Positions 7,801 to 38,059 of a DNA stretch of 64,000 bases are shown in pieces. Source of the stretch: a virus (Duplodnaviria > Heunggongvirae > Uroviricota > Caudoviricetes); the IMG/VR virus record IMGVR_UViG_3300049049_000146, positions 67,216 to 131,215 of that record. One strand, given 5' to 3'. The notes beneath the pieces were generated by a model. The model saw only the letters and a list, made by a program, of their open reading frames with translations. It was not told the origin of the DNA and did no database searches. Both the position numbers and the translations under genes were made by a program. Numbering within the stretch: position 1 is the stretch's first letter; the number at the start of each line of letters is the position of its first letter.

Positions 7801-8082
7801 TTACCCCAAAGGAAACTTCGGCTTTGGTAGTGCTGGCGGCTTTGCCGCAGGCTTCTTAGGTGGTGGCGGAGGGTCGCTCTGGTACTCGCCCATGAGTTTA
7901 CGGAGTTGGACGATTACGCGACCGCACTCCTCAGCGCGGATCATGAACTTCTCCACGACTTCTTCGCCGTGGGACTCGACGGCCTTGGCCATTTCTAGAT
8001 GGTTCTCTCGGTCCTCCGTCAATCTGTCGAGGAGGAACCGGAGTGTGAACCGGTCTAGTGGTGTTCTCCAATCATCTGGCAT
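7801..8082 (-). CDS. hypothetical protein (Pro-rich C-terminus)
   Basis: 93 aa ORF. Confidence 0.5.
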   Translation of the reverse strand: MPDDWRTPLDRFTLRFLLDRLTEDRENHLEMAKAVESHGEEVVEKFMIRAEECGRVIVQLRKLMGEYQSDPPPPPKKPAAKPPALPKPKFPLG

Positions 8083-8090
8083 AGTGGCAC

Positions 8091-8121
8091 CGTCAGGATA
8101 GTAGTAAATACTACCCTGACG
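8091..8121. repeat. long hairpin CGTCAGG-ATAGTAGTAAATACTAC-CCTGACG
   Basis: 7-bp outer plus 6-bp inner inverted repeat, about 10 nt upstream of the ATG at 8082. Confidence 0.4.
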
Positions 8122-8175
8122 TTTCCCATTATGCCGCGGCAGTCAAGTATCTGTCAATGAATCCTGGACAGATGC

Positions 8176-8421
8176 TCACGTTTCCGTAGGGGAATCCTCA
8201 CGCGGCGGCTCAGCGGGAGCCAGCTTCTTTTCCTCGACCTTCTTGCGCATGCTCAGGAACTTCCTGTACACGCCCTTGAATTCCTGGGAATTGAGCTTCG
8301 GCCCGAGGTCGATCTTGCCATCCCCGCTCTGCGCGGCGGTCAGGATCTCGTTCATGAATTCGATTTCCTCGAACGTGAACGAGTTGGAGACCCGGATCTT
8401 CGATTCCTTGATGAGCGTCAT
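8176..8421 (-). CDS. hypothetical protein
   Basis: 81 aa ORF; divergent from the plus-strand gene. Confidence 0.45.
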   Translation of the reverse strand: MTLIKESKIRVSNSFTFEEIEFMNEILTAAQSGDGKIDLGPKLNSQEFKGVYRKFLSMRKKVEEKKLAPAEPPREDSPTET

Positions 8422-8453
8422 CGCACGTTATCTTTCAGCTGGAGGGTTCGCGA

Positions 8454-9812
8454 ATGAGACTGACAGTTACAAACCTAACAAATTCGAGCATTTCGGTCGG
8501 TGGCCGCGTCGGCAAACTGCCCGCTGGTATTTCCACGACGACCACGTTGGATTTGACAGTTGACGAGCTTGAGAAGGTGCAGTCTCGTCTAGTAGCCTTG
8601 AAGGCTGCTGGTGTGATTCTTTTCACTGTGGCTGCAAATGCAGACACGAACGACAATCCTACCGAGGGCGTGACTGTCCAGTACATGCAGGACTACGTCA
8701 CAACGGCACTCGCGGGTGTAAGCGGGGGCGGAGGTGGCGGACCTACCTACATCGTTGGAAATTCGGCAGCAGGCGATACCTCCTCCAATTGTACGCACCT
8801 CGATTCCGGCAACGGAGACGCCCTCAGGACCGCTCTAGCTGCGGCAGGCGGCACCGGGGGCTCGGTGTTCGTTCGTCGCGGCACGTACACGCTCACGCAC
8901 GCTGGAGGAGCGACGGTAGTGCCAGGTAACGTAGACCTTATCGGAGAGGGTCAGGGAACCGTCCTCGCGCTACCCCGCAGTGGTGAAATCTTCTCACTCG
9001 ACATCAACGGCAGAGTTGAGAACTGCGCCATTCGGCAGACCGGCCAGCCTAACGGCGCGTTTGCATTCAGCACCAACCGATTCATCGAAATGCGAGGAGG
9101 TGCACGACTGAACAAGTGCCTTGTTGAAATCCTCGCAAACGGAGGAAGCGCGGGTAACTACGGCGGCTTCTACTCAATGGTCCGCATGTCGTCAGCCCTC
9201 GGCCTCGTGAGCAACTGCGTGTTCCGTGGCTATTCTTCGACGACTCTGGGTGCCGGCTTCGAGTGCTTGGGCGTCCAGGCTATCGGCGGATTCTGCGGTG
9301 TCGTTGATTCGACGTTCGGGGACACCGGCTTCAACGCATTCGATGTGCCCGTTGAACTTGGTGAAGCTTCGTACAACTACGCCAAGGGCTGCAACTTCGT
9401 CCGCACGACCATTCACGGCGTCCGCCTTGTGATGGTGTTCGACACGCAGGGTCAGCGTATCGAGGGATGCAACTTCGACGTACGAGGCGGAAACGGCGTG
9501 GGTATCGAATGGTTCGGCAACGGTGTGCTGCGCAACACGCTCATTCACGGAAACGTGATCTCTTGCGCAGCGACAGCGTCGCACGGAATCAACCTCTTCA
9601 GCACCTCGGGCACGAACGAAATCGACTTCCTCAGCATCCAGAACAACATGCTGGTTGGTGCTGGTGCGGGTATCGGAATCCGCCTCGCAGAGAGCGGAGG
9701 CGGACTCAACAGCAACGTCAATGAATCGCTGAACTCTGTCTACAACTTCGGCACGGCGCGAAGCATTGCTGCCACTGGCGGAGGTCTCACCCAGGTCGGC
9801 AATCTTCCCTGA
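8454..9812 (+). CDS. glycine-rich right-handed beta-helix (pectate-lyase-fold-like) protein; tail-fibre/depolymerase-like or moron
   Basis: 452 aa; the only credible plus-strand gene; GGAGGG RBS 7 nt before the ATG; repeated N/GC-x-F/I and IxN/IHGN PbH1-like beta-helix repeats; poly-Gly stretch. Confidence 0.6.
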   Translation: MRLTVTNLTNSSISVGGRVGKLPAGISTTTTLDLTVDELEKVQSRLVALKAAGVILFTVAANADTNDNPTEGVTVQYMQDYVTTALAGVSGGGGGGPTYIVGNSAAGDTSSNCTHLDSGNGDALRTALAAAGGTGGSVFVRRGTYTLTHAGGATVVPGNVDLIGEGQGTVLALPRSGEIFSLDINGRVENCAIRQTGQPNGAFAFSTNRFIEMRGGARLNKCLVEILANGGSAGNYGGFYSMVRMSSALGLVSNCVFRGYSSTTLGAGFECLGVQAIGGFCGVVDSTFGDTGFNAFDVPVELGEASYNYAKGCNFVRTTIHGVRLVMVFDTQGQRIEGCNFDVRGGNGVGIEWFGNGVLRNTLIHGNVISCAATASHGINLFSTSGTNEIDFLSIQNNMLVGAGAGIGIRLAESGGGLNSNVNESLNSVYNFGTARSIAATGGGLTQVGNLP

Positions 9813-9813
9813 G

Positions 9814-10512
9814 CTACTTCGCCCAGCGCTTGAACATCTCCACGACGGACTTGGCCCCGGAACGCTTGAGCGTCCCCTTGACGCGATTGAGTTCCTTCTC
9901 GGCCAGGTCCGTCAGCGTATGCTGCATCAGCTTTACCCCGGCGATGAATTCCTCGACATCTTCCTTGTTCTCTGAGGCGAAATAGATGACGCCGCCATCC
10001 CTCTCTGCCCTAAGGCCCGGCCCCGGAACACTGAAATCACCAGCCCGATCGTAGAACGAATCAAGGCTCTCTTCCTTGAAGACACGAATCGGCTTCTCAG
10101 AATAGAGACCGGACAGGTTGACGCAGGTGCCCCAAAGCTTGTCCGCCTTGTCCTGCCTAGCCTTCCTGCCTTTCTTGTAGAGCTTCTCGGCTTCGTATTC
10201 CTTCCGCTCACGGGTTCCATTCTTGTAGTAGACGTCCACTACAAAGATGTCGTACAGCGGAGCGAACGAGTCGCTGCCCGTGAAGTAGTCCTCCATCTTG
10301 AGGAGAGACCACTCGTCGTAATACGTAGGCGTAGGGGTACCCTGGTCCTCACGCCACTTGTGACTCCAGCGATGTTCCAGGCTCCCGACGATCGACTCTG
10401 CCTTGGCGTTCGCCTCCTCCGGCGTGTCCGCTTCAATACACAGGCAGTGACCGTACGTGTCGGTAACGTTGAACCGGCCGTTGGGATTGTTCTGATCGTA
10501 CGTGAAGAACAT
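9814..10512 (-). CDS. hypothetical protein
   Basis: 232 aa ORF; convergent with the plus gene, stops 1 nt apart. Confidence 0.55.
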   Translation of the reverse strand: MFFTYDQNNPNGRFNVTDTYGHCLCIEADTPEEANAKAESIVGSLEHRWSHKWREDQGTPTPTYYDEWSLLKMEDYFTGSDSFAPLYDIFVVDVYYKNGTRERKEYEAEKLYKKGRKARQDKADKLWGTCVNLSGLYSEKPIRVFKEESLDSFYDRAGDFSVPGPGLRAERDGGVIYFASENKEDVEEFIAGVKLMQHTLTDLAEKELNRVKGTLKRSGAKSVVEMFKRWAK

Positions 10513-36395: not shown

Positions 36396-36665
36396 TTAAT
36401 CTCCCGTGAAGATGTCGAACATGCGGTCGATATCGAACGACTCTTCGTCACCGGATTCGATCTTCGTCGGCGTGACAACCGCCCACGCAACGAAGGTCCC
36501 GTCGTCATCCAGACGAACGCTCAGACGTCTCTTCTCGGCCGCCGCCTCGATAAGAATCACTGCGCCGCGAAAGCCGGTGCTCTCGCCAGAGAATACGTCA
36601 CCGTCGTAATTCCTCTTGGCGAGAGCAGCGCGGAACTTCTCTTCCCACTCTTCGATGAAGCTCAC
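36396..36665 (-). CDS. hypothetical protein
   Basis: 89 aa ORF. Confidence 0.45.
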   Translation of the reverse strand: MSFIEEWEEKFRAALAKRNYDGDVFSGESTGFRGAVILIEAAAEKRRLSVRLDDDGTFVAWAVVTPTKIESGDEESFDIDRMFDIFTGD

Positions 36666-38059
36666 TCTTCCTCCCGGAAGCGCTTACCCACAGGGAAGCG
36701 CGGCACGCCATCCTTGGTCTTGTTCTGGTAGCAGACCGTCAGAATCTTGCCCTGCCAGAGACTGTGGTCCTCGAAGAATTCCTTGAGGCGGTCGAGTGAC
36801 CCATCCATCTTGGCCTTGAAGAGCTTCTCGTCCGGCGTCCTACAGATGAACGCAGCCACGTGCCCCATGAGCTTTCCGCGGCCTTCCTCGAAGTCGACGA
36901 TGGGGAACTCCTCGTCGAGGAATTCCTTGACCTTCAGGAGGTCGTAGCTGCGCTTGTACTCGTACATGCCGTTGGCATTACGAACCATCGCGCCCTCGTA
37001 ACCCTGGCGGAGATACTCCGTGAAGATTTCGACAAGCTCGTCTTCCGACTCAGCCTTCTTATTCTTCACGAGCTTGAACGGATGCGGCGCGTCAGCGAAC
37101 AATTCCTTCAGGTACTTGTATCGCTTGATGAACGGGACGCCCTCGATGACCGCATCGAACACGTGGTACTCGATTACCTCGTGGCCATCACCCGGCTTCT
37201 TCGACCGGCAGAGCGACATGATGCGCTCGAAATCCGTGGCGAGCGTATGAACGTATGCCTCACCGTCGAAGATGTGATTCCCTTCAGGGAACTTCTCCTC
37301 GAACGCACGAGCAATGTGCGGAAGGCTGGTGACCGGCTTGCGGTTACGCGTCCAGAGCTTGCAGACGCCATCATTGATCGTCGCCACCATGCGCATGCCG
37401 TCGAGCTTTTTGCTGACGAGGCAGGGGTACTTGATCTTGTGGCCGTGCTCGGAGAACTTGTGGGCGAGCATCGGAGAGATTCCTCCCTCGACGAACCGCT
37501 CGTCCGCCTCTCCCGCCGTGGCCTTTTCCGGGTCCTCGACGTAGAGCTTGATTCTCAGCTGCTTCTCCCAGCGAGCCTTTGCTTCTGCAATCGCCTGCTG
37601 TTCAGGAGTCGTCGCATTGACCTTGCCGAGATTCTTTCCGGCCTTGATCACGTCCTCGGTCGTTTGCTTTTTGCCGTCGACCTGGCCGTGAATGGTACGA
37701 ATCGTCGTACCCTCAACCTCGATCTTCCATTCCTGTAACGTGCCCTTTGTGTTCTTCTTGTAGAGCACGGGGAATTCAGTCTTCATCGAGTCTTCCTCAT
37801 TCGCGATTCGTAAGAGAACATCGGCGTGGCAGGGGAGCGGGGCGCACCAACACAGGAGGTCACGCCCTTTTAACTCCGCTCGGATCTTGCGCATCAGGAG
37901 TGGACGTGTCCTGACCCACTCCTCGTATTTACGGATTACCTCGGAACGTAGCTGGCCTGGCTGCAACTCGAACGGGTTTCCAAATGGCGAGGGCCTCCCG
38001 ACATATACAGCGTCAGGAGGCCACACGTTACCCGCGCGTCTGTTGTAGACCTTGGGCAT
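36662..38059 (-). CDS. ATP-dependent DNA ligase with N-terminal DUF4326-like domain
   Basis: 465 aa; KLDGMR adenylation motif I; C-terminal OB-fold motif ...GVPRFPVGKRFREEE; N-terminal YVGRPSPFGNPF (DUF4326 signature). Confidence 0.85.
   Translation of the reverse strand: MPKVYNRRAGNVWPPDAVYVGRPSPFGNPFELQPGQLRSEVIRKYEEWVRTRPLLMRKIRAELKGRDLLCWCAPLPCHADVLLRIANEEDSMKTEFPVLYKKNTKGTLQEWKIEVEGTTIRTIHGQVDGKKQTTEDVIKAGKNLGKVNATTPEQQAIAEAKARWEKQLRIKLYVEDPEKATAGEADERFVEGGISPMLAHKFSEHGHKIKYPCLVSKKLDGMRMVATINDGVCKLWTRNRKPVTSLPHIARAFEEKFPEGNHIFDGEAYVHTLATDFERIMSLCRSKKPGDGHEVIEYHVFDAVIEGVPFIKRYKYLKELFADAPHPFKLVKNKKAESEDELVEIFTEYLRQGYEGAMVRNANGMYEYKRSYDLLKVKEFLDEEFPIVDFEEGRGKLMGHVAAFICRTPDEKLFKAKMDGSLDRLKEFFEDHSLWQGKILTVCYQNKTKDGVPRFPVGKRFREEE

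What the first reader, a model, noticed from the sequence alone, without database searches (positions are those of the whole stretch)
8083..9816. Lone plus-strand gene for a Gly-rich beta-helix protein in an otherwise strictly minus-strand block, ending 1 nt from a convergent gene
8454..9812 has a strong RBS (GGAGGG-N7-ATG) and encodes repeated N/G-C-x-F/I and I-x-N beta-helix rungs (NCAIRQTG, NCVFRGY, GCNFVRTT, GCNFDVRGG, IHGNVISC, IQNNML) plus a poly-Gly tract. These are features of pectate-lyase-fold tail spikes, depolymerases or adhesins. No other virion genes are nearby. It is transcribed against the flow of about 135 neighbouring genes, with its stop abutting the stop of 9814..10512 and no room for a terminator. 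This predicts transcriptional collision or antisense regulation, or a late, separately controlled moron acquired horizontally.
Basis: partly seen in the sequence, partly recalled or inferred. Interest (0 to 1): 0.5.

Follow-up and report, generated by a model that had tools for sequence, protein, structure and literature searches.

The report
Backwards tailspike-like gene in megaphage
The lone plus-strand gene is a real, conserved gene of a roughly 424-kb phage-like genome; it encodes an ordinary kind of phage protein (a small docking module joined to a sugar-binding beta-helix "spike"), and its only unusual feature is that it sits backwards and tightly wedged among early-type genes.

Summary
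ORF 8454..9812 (+, 452 aa) has GGAGGG 7 nt before its ATG, a Gly6 tract, and a stop 1 nt from the stop of 9814..10512 (-). It is the only convincing plus-strand gene among about 121 minus-strand genes in the window.

The gene is real. Against a syntenic relative, synonymous sites are saturated and dN/dS is 0.18.

AlphaFold2 with 27 sequences (pLDDT 91) gives three parts:
- a 60-residue alpha/beta N-terminal module
- a disordered Gly-rich linker
- a right-handed beta-helix (residues 97-452) that matches tailspikes (HK620, Det7, CBA120, Sf6), phi29 gp12 and alginate epimerases

Homologous beta-helices end tail-fibre proteins in other phages, one of them in a Mu-like baseplate operon. The N-module matches no Pfam or PHROG model. 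It heads proteins with other C-termini, several of them in sheath/tube, connector or head gene clusters.

Best reading: a virion appendage or receptor-binding protein, expressed separately from its neighbours, as T4 late genes are.

It is not a recent import. Composition is typical and the position is conserved. The distal helix, however, diverges fast or has been exchanged.

Similar tightly packed inverted islands recur in three other phage lineages. Timing and collision remain untested.

Verdict: a new member of a known kind, of moderate interest.

The parts
8422..8453 (+). 32-nt divergent intergenic region. The 26 nt before the ATG (TTATCTTTCAGCTGGAGGGTTCGCGA) include the GGAGGG Shine-Dalgarno at 8441..8446. 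Candidate 5'UTR or promoter-proximal element of the plus-strand gene.
   Evidence: Sequence. The 26 nt are identical in the relative L001 apart from a 1-nt insertion next to the ATG, although synonymous sites between the two genomes are saturated. The element is unique in the window. No sigma-70-like promoter was found on the + strand.
8454..8633 (+). N-terminal module, residues 1-60 (four beta strands, a helix, a beta strand). The sequence profile extends to about residue 77. Inferred virion-docking adaptor.
   Evidence: - pLDDT is about 90-94 with the 27-sequence alignment.
- Residues 1-96 are 89.6% identical to the L001 orthologue, with dN/dS 0.02.
- The module is shared with proteins that have unrelated C-termini.
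- No Pfam, PHROG or PDB sequence match.
8634..8741 (+). Flexible linker, residues 61-96. It contains a 'TVQYMQDYV' motif and the Gly6 tract (8724..8741).
   Evidence: pLDDT is below 50 for residues 71-93. Sequence. Similar 'Y(V/M)D...GGGG' junctions occur in N-module paralogues of L013.
8742..9809 (+). Right-handed parallel beta-helix, residues 97-452. Inferred polysaccharide-binding and possibly polysaccharide-cleaving receptor domain.
   Evidence: - pLDDT is mostly 93-98.
- Foldseek probability is 1.0 to AlgE4/AlgE6, PfbA, the HK620, Det7, CBA120 and Sf6 tailspikes and phi29 gp12. It also matches viral tailspike and pectate-lyase proteins.
- The profile search found 351 homologues.
- Of 52 aligned homologues, 11 hit Pfam Beta_helix, 6 NosD, 4 Pect-lyase_RHGA_epim and 1 GH28.
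9810..9816 (.). Convergent junction: TGA stop of the + gene (9810..9812), one spacer base (9813), then the stop of the minus gene (CTA, 9814..9816).
   Evidence: There is no terminator-like structure. The equivalent junctions are -7 nt in L001, -22 nt in L005, 0 nt in L017 and 0 nt in L013.
9814..10512 (-). Convergent neighbour, a DUF7296 protein of 232 aa. It is not part of the appendage but defines the 3' boundary.
   Evidence: Pfam PF23969 at 2.4e-11. It is 80% identical in L001.
8176..8421 (-). Divergent neighbour, 81 aa. Any promoter of the + gene must lie inside it or further upstream. It contains a 38-nt stretch (8246..8283) with no substitution against L001.

Best explanation
Gene 8454..9812 encodes a modular virion appendage of the tailspike/receptor-binding type in an uncultured phage with a genome of about 424 kb.

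**Inferred domain roles**
- The conserved 60-77-residue N-terminal module docks the protein to a structural component of the particle.
- A flexible Gly-rich linker follows.
- A 355-residue right-handed beta-helix binds, and may cut or modify, a host surface polysaccharide.

**Shown**
- The gene is real and under purifying selection.
- The protein has a two-domain architecture and a beta-helix fold.
- It is homologous to the C-termini of tail-fibre proteins.
- The N-module recurs on other proteins, several of them in structural gene clusters.
- Conservation is mosaic: the anchor is conserved and the distal helix is divergent.

**Inferred**
- Presence in the virion, the docking partner, the oligomeric state and any enzymatic activity.

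**Orientation**
The reverse orientation most likely marks a different temporal class from the surrounding early-type minus-strand genes. In T4, late genes run opposite to early and middle genes. The gene would be driven by its own, still unidentified promoter, embedded in or next to the divergent 81-aa gene. Its transcript would run into the convergent gene because there is no terminator.
For: **The gene is real**
- Against the syntenic orthologue, pS is 0.70 and pN is 0.29, giving dN/dS 0.18. For the N-terminal 96 residues dN/dS is 0.02.
- The gene has the lowest identity (56.6%) of 18 syntenic genes, which range from 69 to 92%. The anchor is 89.6% identical and residues 201-452 are 38-41% identical.
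- The distal helix is closer to a non-syntenic homologue (53.8%) than to the syntenic one (40.8%). This mosaic is typical of receptor-binding proteins.

**Fold**
-.

**Homologous beta-helices in tail-fibre proteins**
- P0005 (966 aa) lies at the end of a Mu-like baseplate operon, and its N-terminus matches tail-fibre PHROGs.
- P0010's N-terminus also matches tail-fibre PHROGs.
- P0004 sits beside a 754-aa fibre-like paralogue that shares its N-terminus.

**N-module proteins in structural gene clusters**
- Between tail sheath and tail tube genes in L012 and L011.
- After a connector-like gene in L003.
- Between the prohead protease and the major head protein in L016.
- As three tandem paralogues next to a SASA esterase in L013.

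**Separate control**
- The 17-nt motif AAAGTCCG-NN-GATACTA occurs 11 times, on the minus strand only.
- The gene has a strong RBS of its own and a conserved upstream element.
- The T4 precedent for orientation-coded timing is in PMC1524935.
Against: - No virion gene lies near it in the 64-kb window.
- Its closest non-syntenic homologue, P0003, has no N-terminal module at all. The helix can therefore exist without this anchor.
- N-module genes sit in head as well as tail clusters, so the docking site is unknown.
- The protein itself matches no Pfam or PHROG model and nothing in 50,697 cultured-phage records.
- No plus-strand promoter was identified.
- Expression timing, trimerisation, catalysis and virion presence are all untested.
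Confidence: 0.6

Rival explanations
1. A non-virion, soluble beta-helix enzyme or adhesin. Examples are a free depolymerase released at lysis or an intracellular polysaccharide-modifying enzyme such as an epimerase or lyase. It would be encoded as an independently expressed accessory gene among early genes.
For: - It lies in a block of DNA- and nucleotide-metabolism and unknown genes with no virion genes.
- Top Foldseek hits include AlgE4/AlgE6 epimerases, RbmB lyase and the PfbA adhesin, not only tailspikes.
- The homologue P0003 lacks any anchor module.
Against: - The N-module is under very strong constraint (dN/dS 0.02).
- The N-module recurs at the N-terminus of proteins encoded in sheath/tube, connector and head clusters.
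- The same helix ends tail-fibre proteins elsewhere.
- The mosaic divergence fits a host-range determinant.
Confidence: 0.2
2. The protein is virion-bound but attached to the capsid or neck (a head fibre or neck appendage, as with phi29 gp12 or gp8.5) rather than to the baseplate.
For: - The N-module protein P0112 is encoded between the prohead protease and the major head protein.
- P0133 follows a head-tail connector-like gene.
- The phi29 pre-neck appendage gp12 is among the fold matches.
Against: - Other N-module genes lie between sheath and tube genes.
- Homologous helices lie in baseplate and tail-fibre operons.
- No data discriminate between docking sites.
Confidence: 0.15
3. A recently acquired foreign 'moron' inserted in reverse.
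For: - Reverse orientation and tight junctions.
- The distal helix is nearer to a non-syntenic homologue than to the syntenic orthologue.
- Per-codon coding score is low (rank 7 of 76).
Against: - GC, GC3 and synonymous codon usage are within the genome's range. The low coding score is explained by the Gly/Thr/Asn-rich composition.
- Position and orientation are the same in a relative with saturated synonymous divergence.
- No relative was found in 185,579 bacterial and archaeal genomes by pattern scan.
Confidence: 0.05
4. An invertible, phase-variable tail-fibre segment of the Mu G or P1 C type, caught in one orientation.
For: A lone inverted fibre-like gene is what such a switch would look like.
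Against: - No flanking inverted repeats beyond chance-level matches of 14-24 nt at 71-87%.
- The orientation is the same in two diverged genomes and in a second assembly.
- No invertase was seen nearby.
Confidence: 0.02
5. A non-coding shadow ORF on the antisense strand of a GC-rich region.
For: Many long plus-strand ORFs in this window are shadows of minus-strand genes.
Against: - No competing minus-strand gene exists. The 130-aa antisense ORF 9192..9584 has a non-coding GC-by-position pattern.
- dN/dS is 0.18.
- There are 351 homologues.
- The predicted fold is confident.
Confidence: 0.01

Closest known systems
Beta-helix tailspikes of phages HK620, Det7, CBA120 (TSP3), Sf6 and Pam1
   Same: A right-handed parallel beta-helix receptor domain preceded by a small N-terminal particle-binding module and a linker. 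Foldseek probability is 1.0, with TM-score up to 0.53 on the query.
   Different: - Sequence identity is only 11-15%.
- The N-terminal module is unrelated by sequence to any described one.
- The protein ends with the helix, with no C-terminal trimerisation or chaperone domain.
- The gene is not in a structural operon.
Multi-RBP phages in which several spikes share N-terminal attachment modules (e.g. CBA120 TSP1-4, G7C gp63.1/gp66); comparison from my own knowledge
   Same: One conserved N-terminal module is combined with varied C-terminal receptor domains, and several paralogues occur per genome: three in L013 and two or three in L003.
   Different: The module here is a different, undescribed family. 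Only one copy lies in the 64-kb window. Branching or docking has not been shown.
Alginate C-5 epimerases AlgE4/AlgE6 and polysaccharide lyases (RbmB, PL6)
   Same: They are the best Foldseek E-values. The fold is shared, as is an N-terminal cap motif of the Pect-lyase_RHGA_epim type that is found in distant homologues.
   Different: - About 15% identity.
- TM-scores (0.21-0.31) are lower than to the tailspikes.
- Catalytic residues were not compared.
- These are bacterial secreted enzymes, not phage proteins.
T4-type genome layout, in which late genes run opposite to early and middle genes (PMC1524935)
   Same: A structural-type gene is oriented against a long array of early-type genes.
   Different: T4-like phages have a predicted bidirectional terminator between converging transcripts (PMC1524935). 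Here the convergent junction is 1 nt and has no structure. No T4-type late promoter (TATAAATA) is present. Timing has not been measured.
Lambdoid 'morons' (independently transcribed accessory genes, often reversed); from my own knowledge
   Same: A single reversed gene with its own translation signals.
   Different: There is no flanking promoter-terminator pair and no compositional deviation. Position is conserved in a diverged relative.

Membership tests
Pectin-lyase-like right-handed parallel beta-helix superfamily | Right-handed coil of three-stranded rungs forming parallel sheets | tested here: met
   AF2 model at pLDDT 91.4 with regular short strands through residues 98-448. Foldseek probability 1.0 to many solved beta-helix proteins.
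Pectin-lyase-like right-handed parallel beta-helix superfamily | Sequence match to a curated family model (Pfam Beta_helix, NosD, Pect-lyase_RHGA_epim, GH28) | tested here: not met
   The protein has no Pfam hit at E<=1. Of 52 aligned homologues, 11 hit Beta_helix, 6 NosD, 4 Pect-lyase_RHGA_epim and 1 GH28, so the link is transitive only.
Phage tailspike / receptor-binding protein | N-terminal domain that attaches the protein to the virion | tested here: inconclusive
   There is a conserved, confidently folded N-module. It is shared with proteins encoded in tail, connector and head clusters. Attachment itself has not been shown, and the fold was not compared with known adaptors.
Phage tailspike / receptor-binding protein | Gene lies in the tail or baseplate structural module | tested here: not met
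   No structural genes lie around it in the window. Homologues P0005 and P0006 do lie in structural modules.
Phage tailspike / receptor-binding protein | Homotrimer | not testable with these tools
   Only monomer prediction was available.
Phage tailspike / receptor-binding protein | Presence in purified virions; binding or cleavage of a host surface glycan | not testable with these tools
   The phage is uncultured and known only from metagenome contigs.
Phage tailspike / receptor-binding protein | Conserved anchor with a rapidly diverging or exchanged receptor domain | tested here: met
   Residues 1-96 are 89.6% identical and residues 201-452 are 38-41% identical to the syntenic orthologue. 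The gene has the lowest identity of 18 syntenic genes. The distal helix is nearer to the non-syntenic P0003.
Moron (recent horizontally acquired, autonomously transcribed gene) | Deviant composition, and own promoter and terminator flanking the gene | tested here: not met
   Composition is typical. No promoter-like or terminator-like sites flank it. Synteny is conserved.
Invertible tail-fibre segment (Mu G / P1 C type) | Flanking inverted crossover repeats and a nearby invertase | tested here: not met
T4-like late gene (orientation-coded timing) | Late promoter upstream and late expression | not testable with these tools
   No TATAAATA-type element is present. The phage's late promoter class is unknown because the structural region of the genome is outside the window. 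There are no transcript data.

The most novel reading that the evidence does not exclude
In several unrelated large phages, receptor-binding or appendage genes are kept as tightly packed inverted islands inside early or replication gene arrays. In this lineage they carry an undescribed N-terminal docking module. The islands have no space for a promoter or a terminator at either junction: the divergent gaps are 6-56 nt and the convergent gaps are +1 to -22 nt in five loci. The layout itself would then be functional. It could be an orientation-coded or interference-based timing switch. It could also be a hot-swap site where receptor modules are exchanged without disturbing structural operons.
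Probability: 0.2. Interest if true: 0.55.

Novelty: new member of a known kind. Interest (0 to 1): 0.35.

Why it matters
It gives a function class to a gene that no standard annotation library recognises, in a phage of about 424 kb with no cultured relatives. It also points to the protein most likely to determine host recognition.

It defines a small N-terminal module, absent from Pfam and PHROGs, that could be used to find further appendage genes in huge-phage genomes. In such genomes these genes are scattered outside the structural operons.

The recurrence of inverted, terminator-less islands offers a concrete and testable case for how very large phages separate early from late expression.

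Tried and rejected
- **Cultured-phage searches.** DNA and tblastn searches of the locus, the protein, P0004 and its 754-aa neighbour found nothing.
- **Direct family scans.** Pfam and PHROG scans of the protein found nothing.
- **PDB sequence searches.** Searches with the protein, the 27-sequence profile and the N-module profile gave only chance-level hits.
- **First structure model.** With a 3-sequence alignment it was poor (pLDDT 68.5, N-terminus unresolved). It was superseded by the 27-sequence model.
- **Invertible-segment idea.** Rejected, because there are no flanking inverted repeats.
- **Hidden bidirectional terminator at the junction.** Rejected.
- **Shared upstream motif.** No 8-mer is shared by three or more of the independent loci tested (window, L013, L004, L006, L003) upstream of their plus-strand or N-module genes.
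- **Upstream element elsewhere.** A search of the window for the conserved upstream element found only the site itself.
- **Paralogues.** Neither domain has a paralogue in the window.
- **Pattern scans that found nothing.** The JGI metagenome collection with the N-module, GTDB genomes with either domain, and IMG/VR with alignment A1. The source contig itself is evidently not in the JGI collection.
- **Word-index homology search with the N-module profile.** It returned only two proteins.
- **Rfam.** It found only the tRNA.
- **Literature.** Searches for reversed tailspike genes in jumbo phages and for DUF7296 found nothing relevant.
Full report
**1. The observation**

- The ORF runs 8454..9812 on the plus strand and encodes 452 aa.
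- GGAGGG lies at 8441..8446, seven bases before the ATG. Only 11 of 123 called genes have GGAGG near their start.
Glycine makes up 16.6% of the protein, against 6.3% in the other genes.
- The TGA stop at 9810..9812 is separated by a single base from the stop of the convergent gene 9814..10512.
- A codon-model gene call of the whole window gives 121 minus-strand genes and one convincing plus-strand gene, which is this one. The depositor's calls around the locus agree.
- No terminator-like site, conserved hairpin or unusually stable fold exists at the junction.

**2. The gene is real and old in this lineage**

- The exact protein is on a 423.8-kb JGI contig. A 56%-identical protein (P0002) is on related contigs.
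- In the relative (L001) the gene occupies the same position and the same reversed orientation between the same neighbours. There it overlaps the convergent gene by 7 nt.
- Between the two genomes, synonymous sites are saturated (pS 0.70) while pN is 0.29, giving dN/dS 0.18. The plus-strand frame is therefore under purifying selection.
- GC is 0.582. GC3 is 0.66 (rank 11 of 76) and synonymous codon usage ranks 17 of 76. All lie within the genome's range.
- The low raw coding score reflects the Gly/Thr/Asn-rich composition.
- A recent horizontal acquisition of the whole gene is therefore not supported.

**3. What the protein is**

- Standard libraries are blind to it. It has no Pfam or PHROG match, no sequence match in the PDB and no match in cultured phages.
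- An exhaustive profile search found 351 homologues.
- With a 27-sequence alignment, AlphaFold2 gives pLDDT 91.4. The model has three parts:
  - a compact N-terminal domain (residues 1-60: four strands, a helix, a strand)
  - a disordered linker (residues 61-96, including the Gly6 tract)
  - a right-handed beta-helix (residues 97-452)
- Foldseek against the PDB returns only beta-helix proteins at probability 1.0. They include the AlgE4/AlgE6 epimerases, the adhesin PfbA, the tailspikes of HK620, Det7, CBA120, Sf6 and Pam1, and the phi29 appendage gp12.
- Foldseek against predicted viral structures returns tailspikes and 'pectate lyase superfamily' proteins.
- Of 52 aligned homologues, 11 hit Pfam Beta_helix, 6 NosD, 4 Pect-lyase_RHGA_epim and 1 GH28. 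Some also hit tail-fibre and tail-spike PHROGs.

**4. Evidence that the helix is a receptor-binding module**

The same helix (E-values 1e-67 to 1e-118 in the profile search) is attached to different N-termini in other phages.
- P0005 (966 aa) has N-terminal matches to tail-fibre PHROGs. It is the last large gene of a Mu-like baseplate operon that includes DNA_circ_N, GpP-like, Baseplate_J and Mu Gp48 genes.
- P0010 (632 aa) also has tail-fibre N-terminal matches.
- P0004 (531 aa) sits next to a 754-aa paralogue with the same N-terminus of about 105 aa. That paralogue has a Ser-rich fibre and a different tip.
- P0006 lies near portal and Mu-F-like genes.

Against the syntenic orthologue, the focal gene is the least conserved of 18 genes: 56.6% identity against 69-92% for the others. 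The conservation is a sharp mosaic. Residues 1-96 are 89.6% identical (dN/dS 0.02), residues 97-200 are 68% identical, and residues 201-452 are 38-41% identical. The distal helix is closer to the non-syntenic P0003 (53.8%) than to the syntenic P0002 (40.8%). A conserved anchor with an exchanged or fast-evolving tip is the usual signature of host-range determinants (established knowledge).

**5. The N-terminal module**

The module of about 75 residues has the consensus M-x-L-T-I-T-N-x-T ... G-G-R-V-G ... E-L-E ... L-V-x-L ... A-G-x-I ... D-D-A-A-E-G. It heads at least ten other proteins with unrelated C-termini. It matches nothing in Pfam, PHROGs or the PDB by sequence.

Where context could be fetched, the genes lie in structural clusters:
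- between tail sheath and tail tube in two IMG/VR contigs (hhalign probability 95%)
- after a connector-like gene in L003, which holds two or three copies
- between the prohead protease and the major head protein in L016

I infer that the module is a virion-docking adaptor. The partner (tail, neck or head) is undetermined.

One caveat applies. P0003 carries the helix without any such module.

**6. The reversed orientation**

The minus-strand array is punctuated by a 17-nt motif, AAAGTCCG-NN-GATACTA.
- It occurs 11 times in the window, against 0.35 expected, and always on the minus strand.
- It lies mostly 16-45 nt before start codons. One copy precedes the tRNA gene.
- No copy exists on the plus strand, even with four mismatches allowed.

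The plus-strand gene therefore belongs to another promoter class.
- Its 26 upstream bases are identical in L001 apart from a 1-nt insertion next to the ATG, despite saturated synonymous divergence.
- The upstream element is unique in the window.
- No sigma-70-like plus-strand promoter was found.

In T4 and its relatives, early and middle genes run one way and late genes run the other (PMC1524935). By analogy, the orientation most simply marks a late, structural-class gene. Unlike the T4-likes, which have a predicted bidirectional terminator between converging transcripts (same paper), this locus has none.

**7. The layout recurs**

Small plus-strand islands carrying these gene families, inside minus-strand arrays, were found in three further lineages.

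| Locus | GC | Island | Flanking genes |
|---|---|---|---|
| L005/L006 | 66-69% | P0003 alone | Dam methylase and MazG-like |
| L017 | 39% | P0004 plus its fibre paralogue | DNA polymerase III alpha and NT5C/ribonucleotide reductase |
| L013/L014 | 57.6% | three tandem N-module genes, a 274-aa gene and a SASA esterase | HAD-, DSPc- and SprT-like and uncharacterised minus-strand genes |

The junctions are uniformly tight. The divergent gaps are 32, 32, 56, 25 and 6 nt, and the convergent gaps are +1, -7, -22, 0 and 0 nt.

The layout is not universal. In most other loci the homologue is co-oriented with structural neighbours.

There are no flanking inverted repeats, so this is not an invertible segment.

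**8. Verdict**

- The fold and class interpretation is supported.
- The 'recent horizontal moron' reading is not supported.
- The collision or antisense idea remains untested, and it is not needed if the two strands are used at different times.
- The protein is a new, unannotated family of a well-known kind: a modular beta-helix receptor-binding or appendage protein.
- The modestly interesting points are the undescribed docking module and the recurrent, terminator-less inverted islands in large phages.

Noticed in passing
window 2118, 16708, 25128, 25310, 28101, 44692, 48359, 50512, 53857, 60645, 62644 (all minus strand): The 17-nt motif AAAGTCCG-NN-GATACTA occurs 11 times, against 0.35 expected, and only on the minus strand. 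It lies mostly 16-45 nt upstream of start codons, and one copy precedes the tRNA gene. It is probably the promoter of one temporal class of this phage. It is also present in L001, L002 and once in L003.
   Followed up: partly
window 8078-8157: A sigma-70-like promoter lies on the minus strand (TTGACA-18-CATAAT, 8157..8128). It is followed by a 13-bp perfect stem within a longer hairpin (8078..8135) that includes the start codon of gene 7801..8082. The fold is -34.6 kcal/mol with z = -5.4. The stem and the adjacent bases (about 8086..8135) are identical in L001 except for one base at 8126. It may be a translational or processing element.
   Followed up: partly
window 8246-8283 (inside the 81-aa minus-strand gene 8176..8421): A run of 38 nt has no substitution against L001, although synonymous sites in the adjacent focal gene are saturated. 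It may be an embedded regulatory element, for example the promoter of the plus-strand gene 171-208 nt downstream. It is unexplained.
   Followed up: no
window 25207-25283 (-): A tRNA-Ile with the unusual anticodon AAT is the only tRNA in the window. It is preceded by the 17-nt motif.
   Followed up: no
protein P0002 (relative of the focal protein): Its longest contig is 847,782 nt, almost exactly twice the 423,825 nt of the focal contig. It may be a head-to-tail dimer assembly of a genome of about 424 kb rather than an 848-kb genome.
   Followed up: no
L013 6494-10173 (also L014): A five-gene plus-strand island lies in a minus-strand array. It holds three tandem N-module paralogues (283, 220 and 177 aa) with different C-termini, a 274-aa protein and a SASA (sialate O-acetylesterase-like) protein. 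It is flanked with gaps of 6 nt and 0 nt.
   Followed up: partly
L017 10001-13911: A two-gene inverted island lies between DNA polymerase III alpha (with an intein) and the NT5C/ribonucleotide reductase genes. The 531-aa beta-helix protein and a 754-aa Ser-rich fibre protein share a different N-terminal module of about 105 aa.
   Followed up: partly
L001 14418-14684 (+): The relative has a second small plus-strand gene (88 aa) between the GmrSD_N-like gene and the 166-aa gene. It is absent from the window, where those two genes abut.
   Followed up: no
window 36662-38059 (-): An ATP-dependent DNA ligase is fused to an N-terminal DUF4326 domain. The ligase part is at most 38% identical to ligases of cultured phages.
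   Followed up: no
window, gene not identified: One of 89 window proteins gives a weak match to PHROG 15528, 'portal protein' (1.5e-8).
   Followed up: no
L009 9173-9532: The 119-aa gene just upstream of the beta-helix tail-fibre protein P0010 matches the C-terminal domain of the 177-aa N-module protein of L013 at 47% identity. This is further evidence of domain shuffling among these appendage genes.
   Followed up: no
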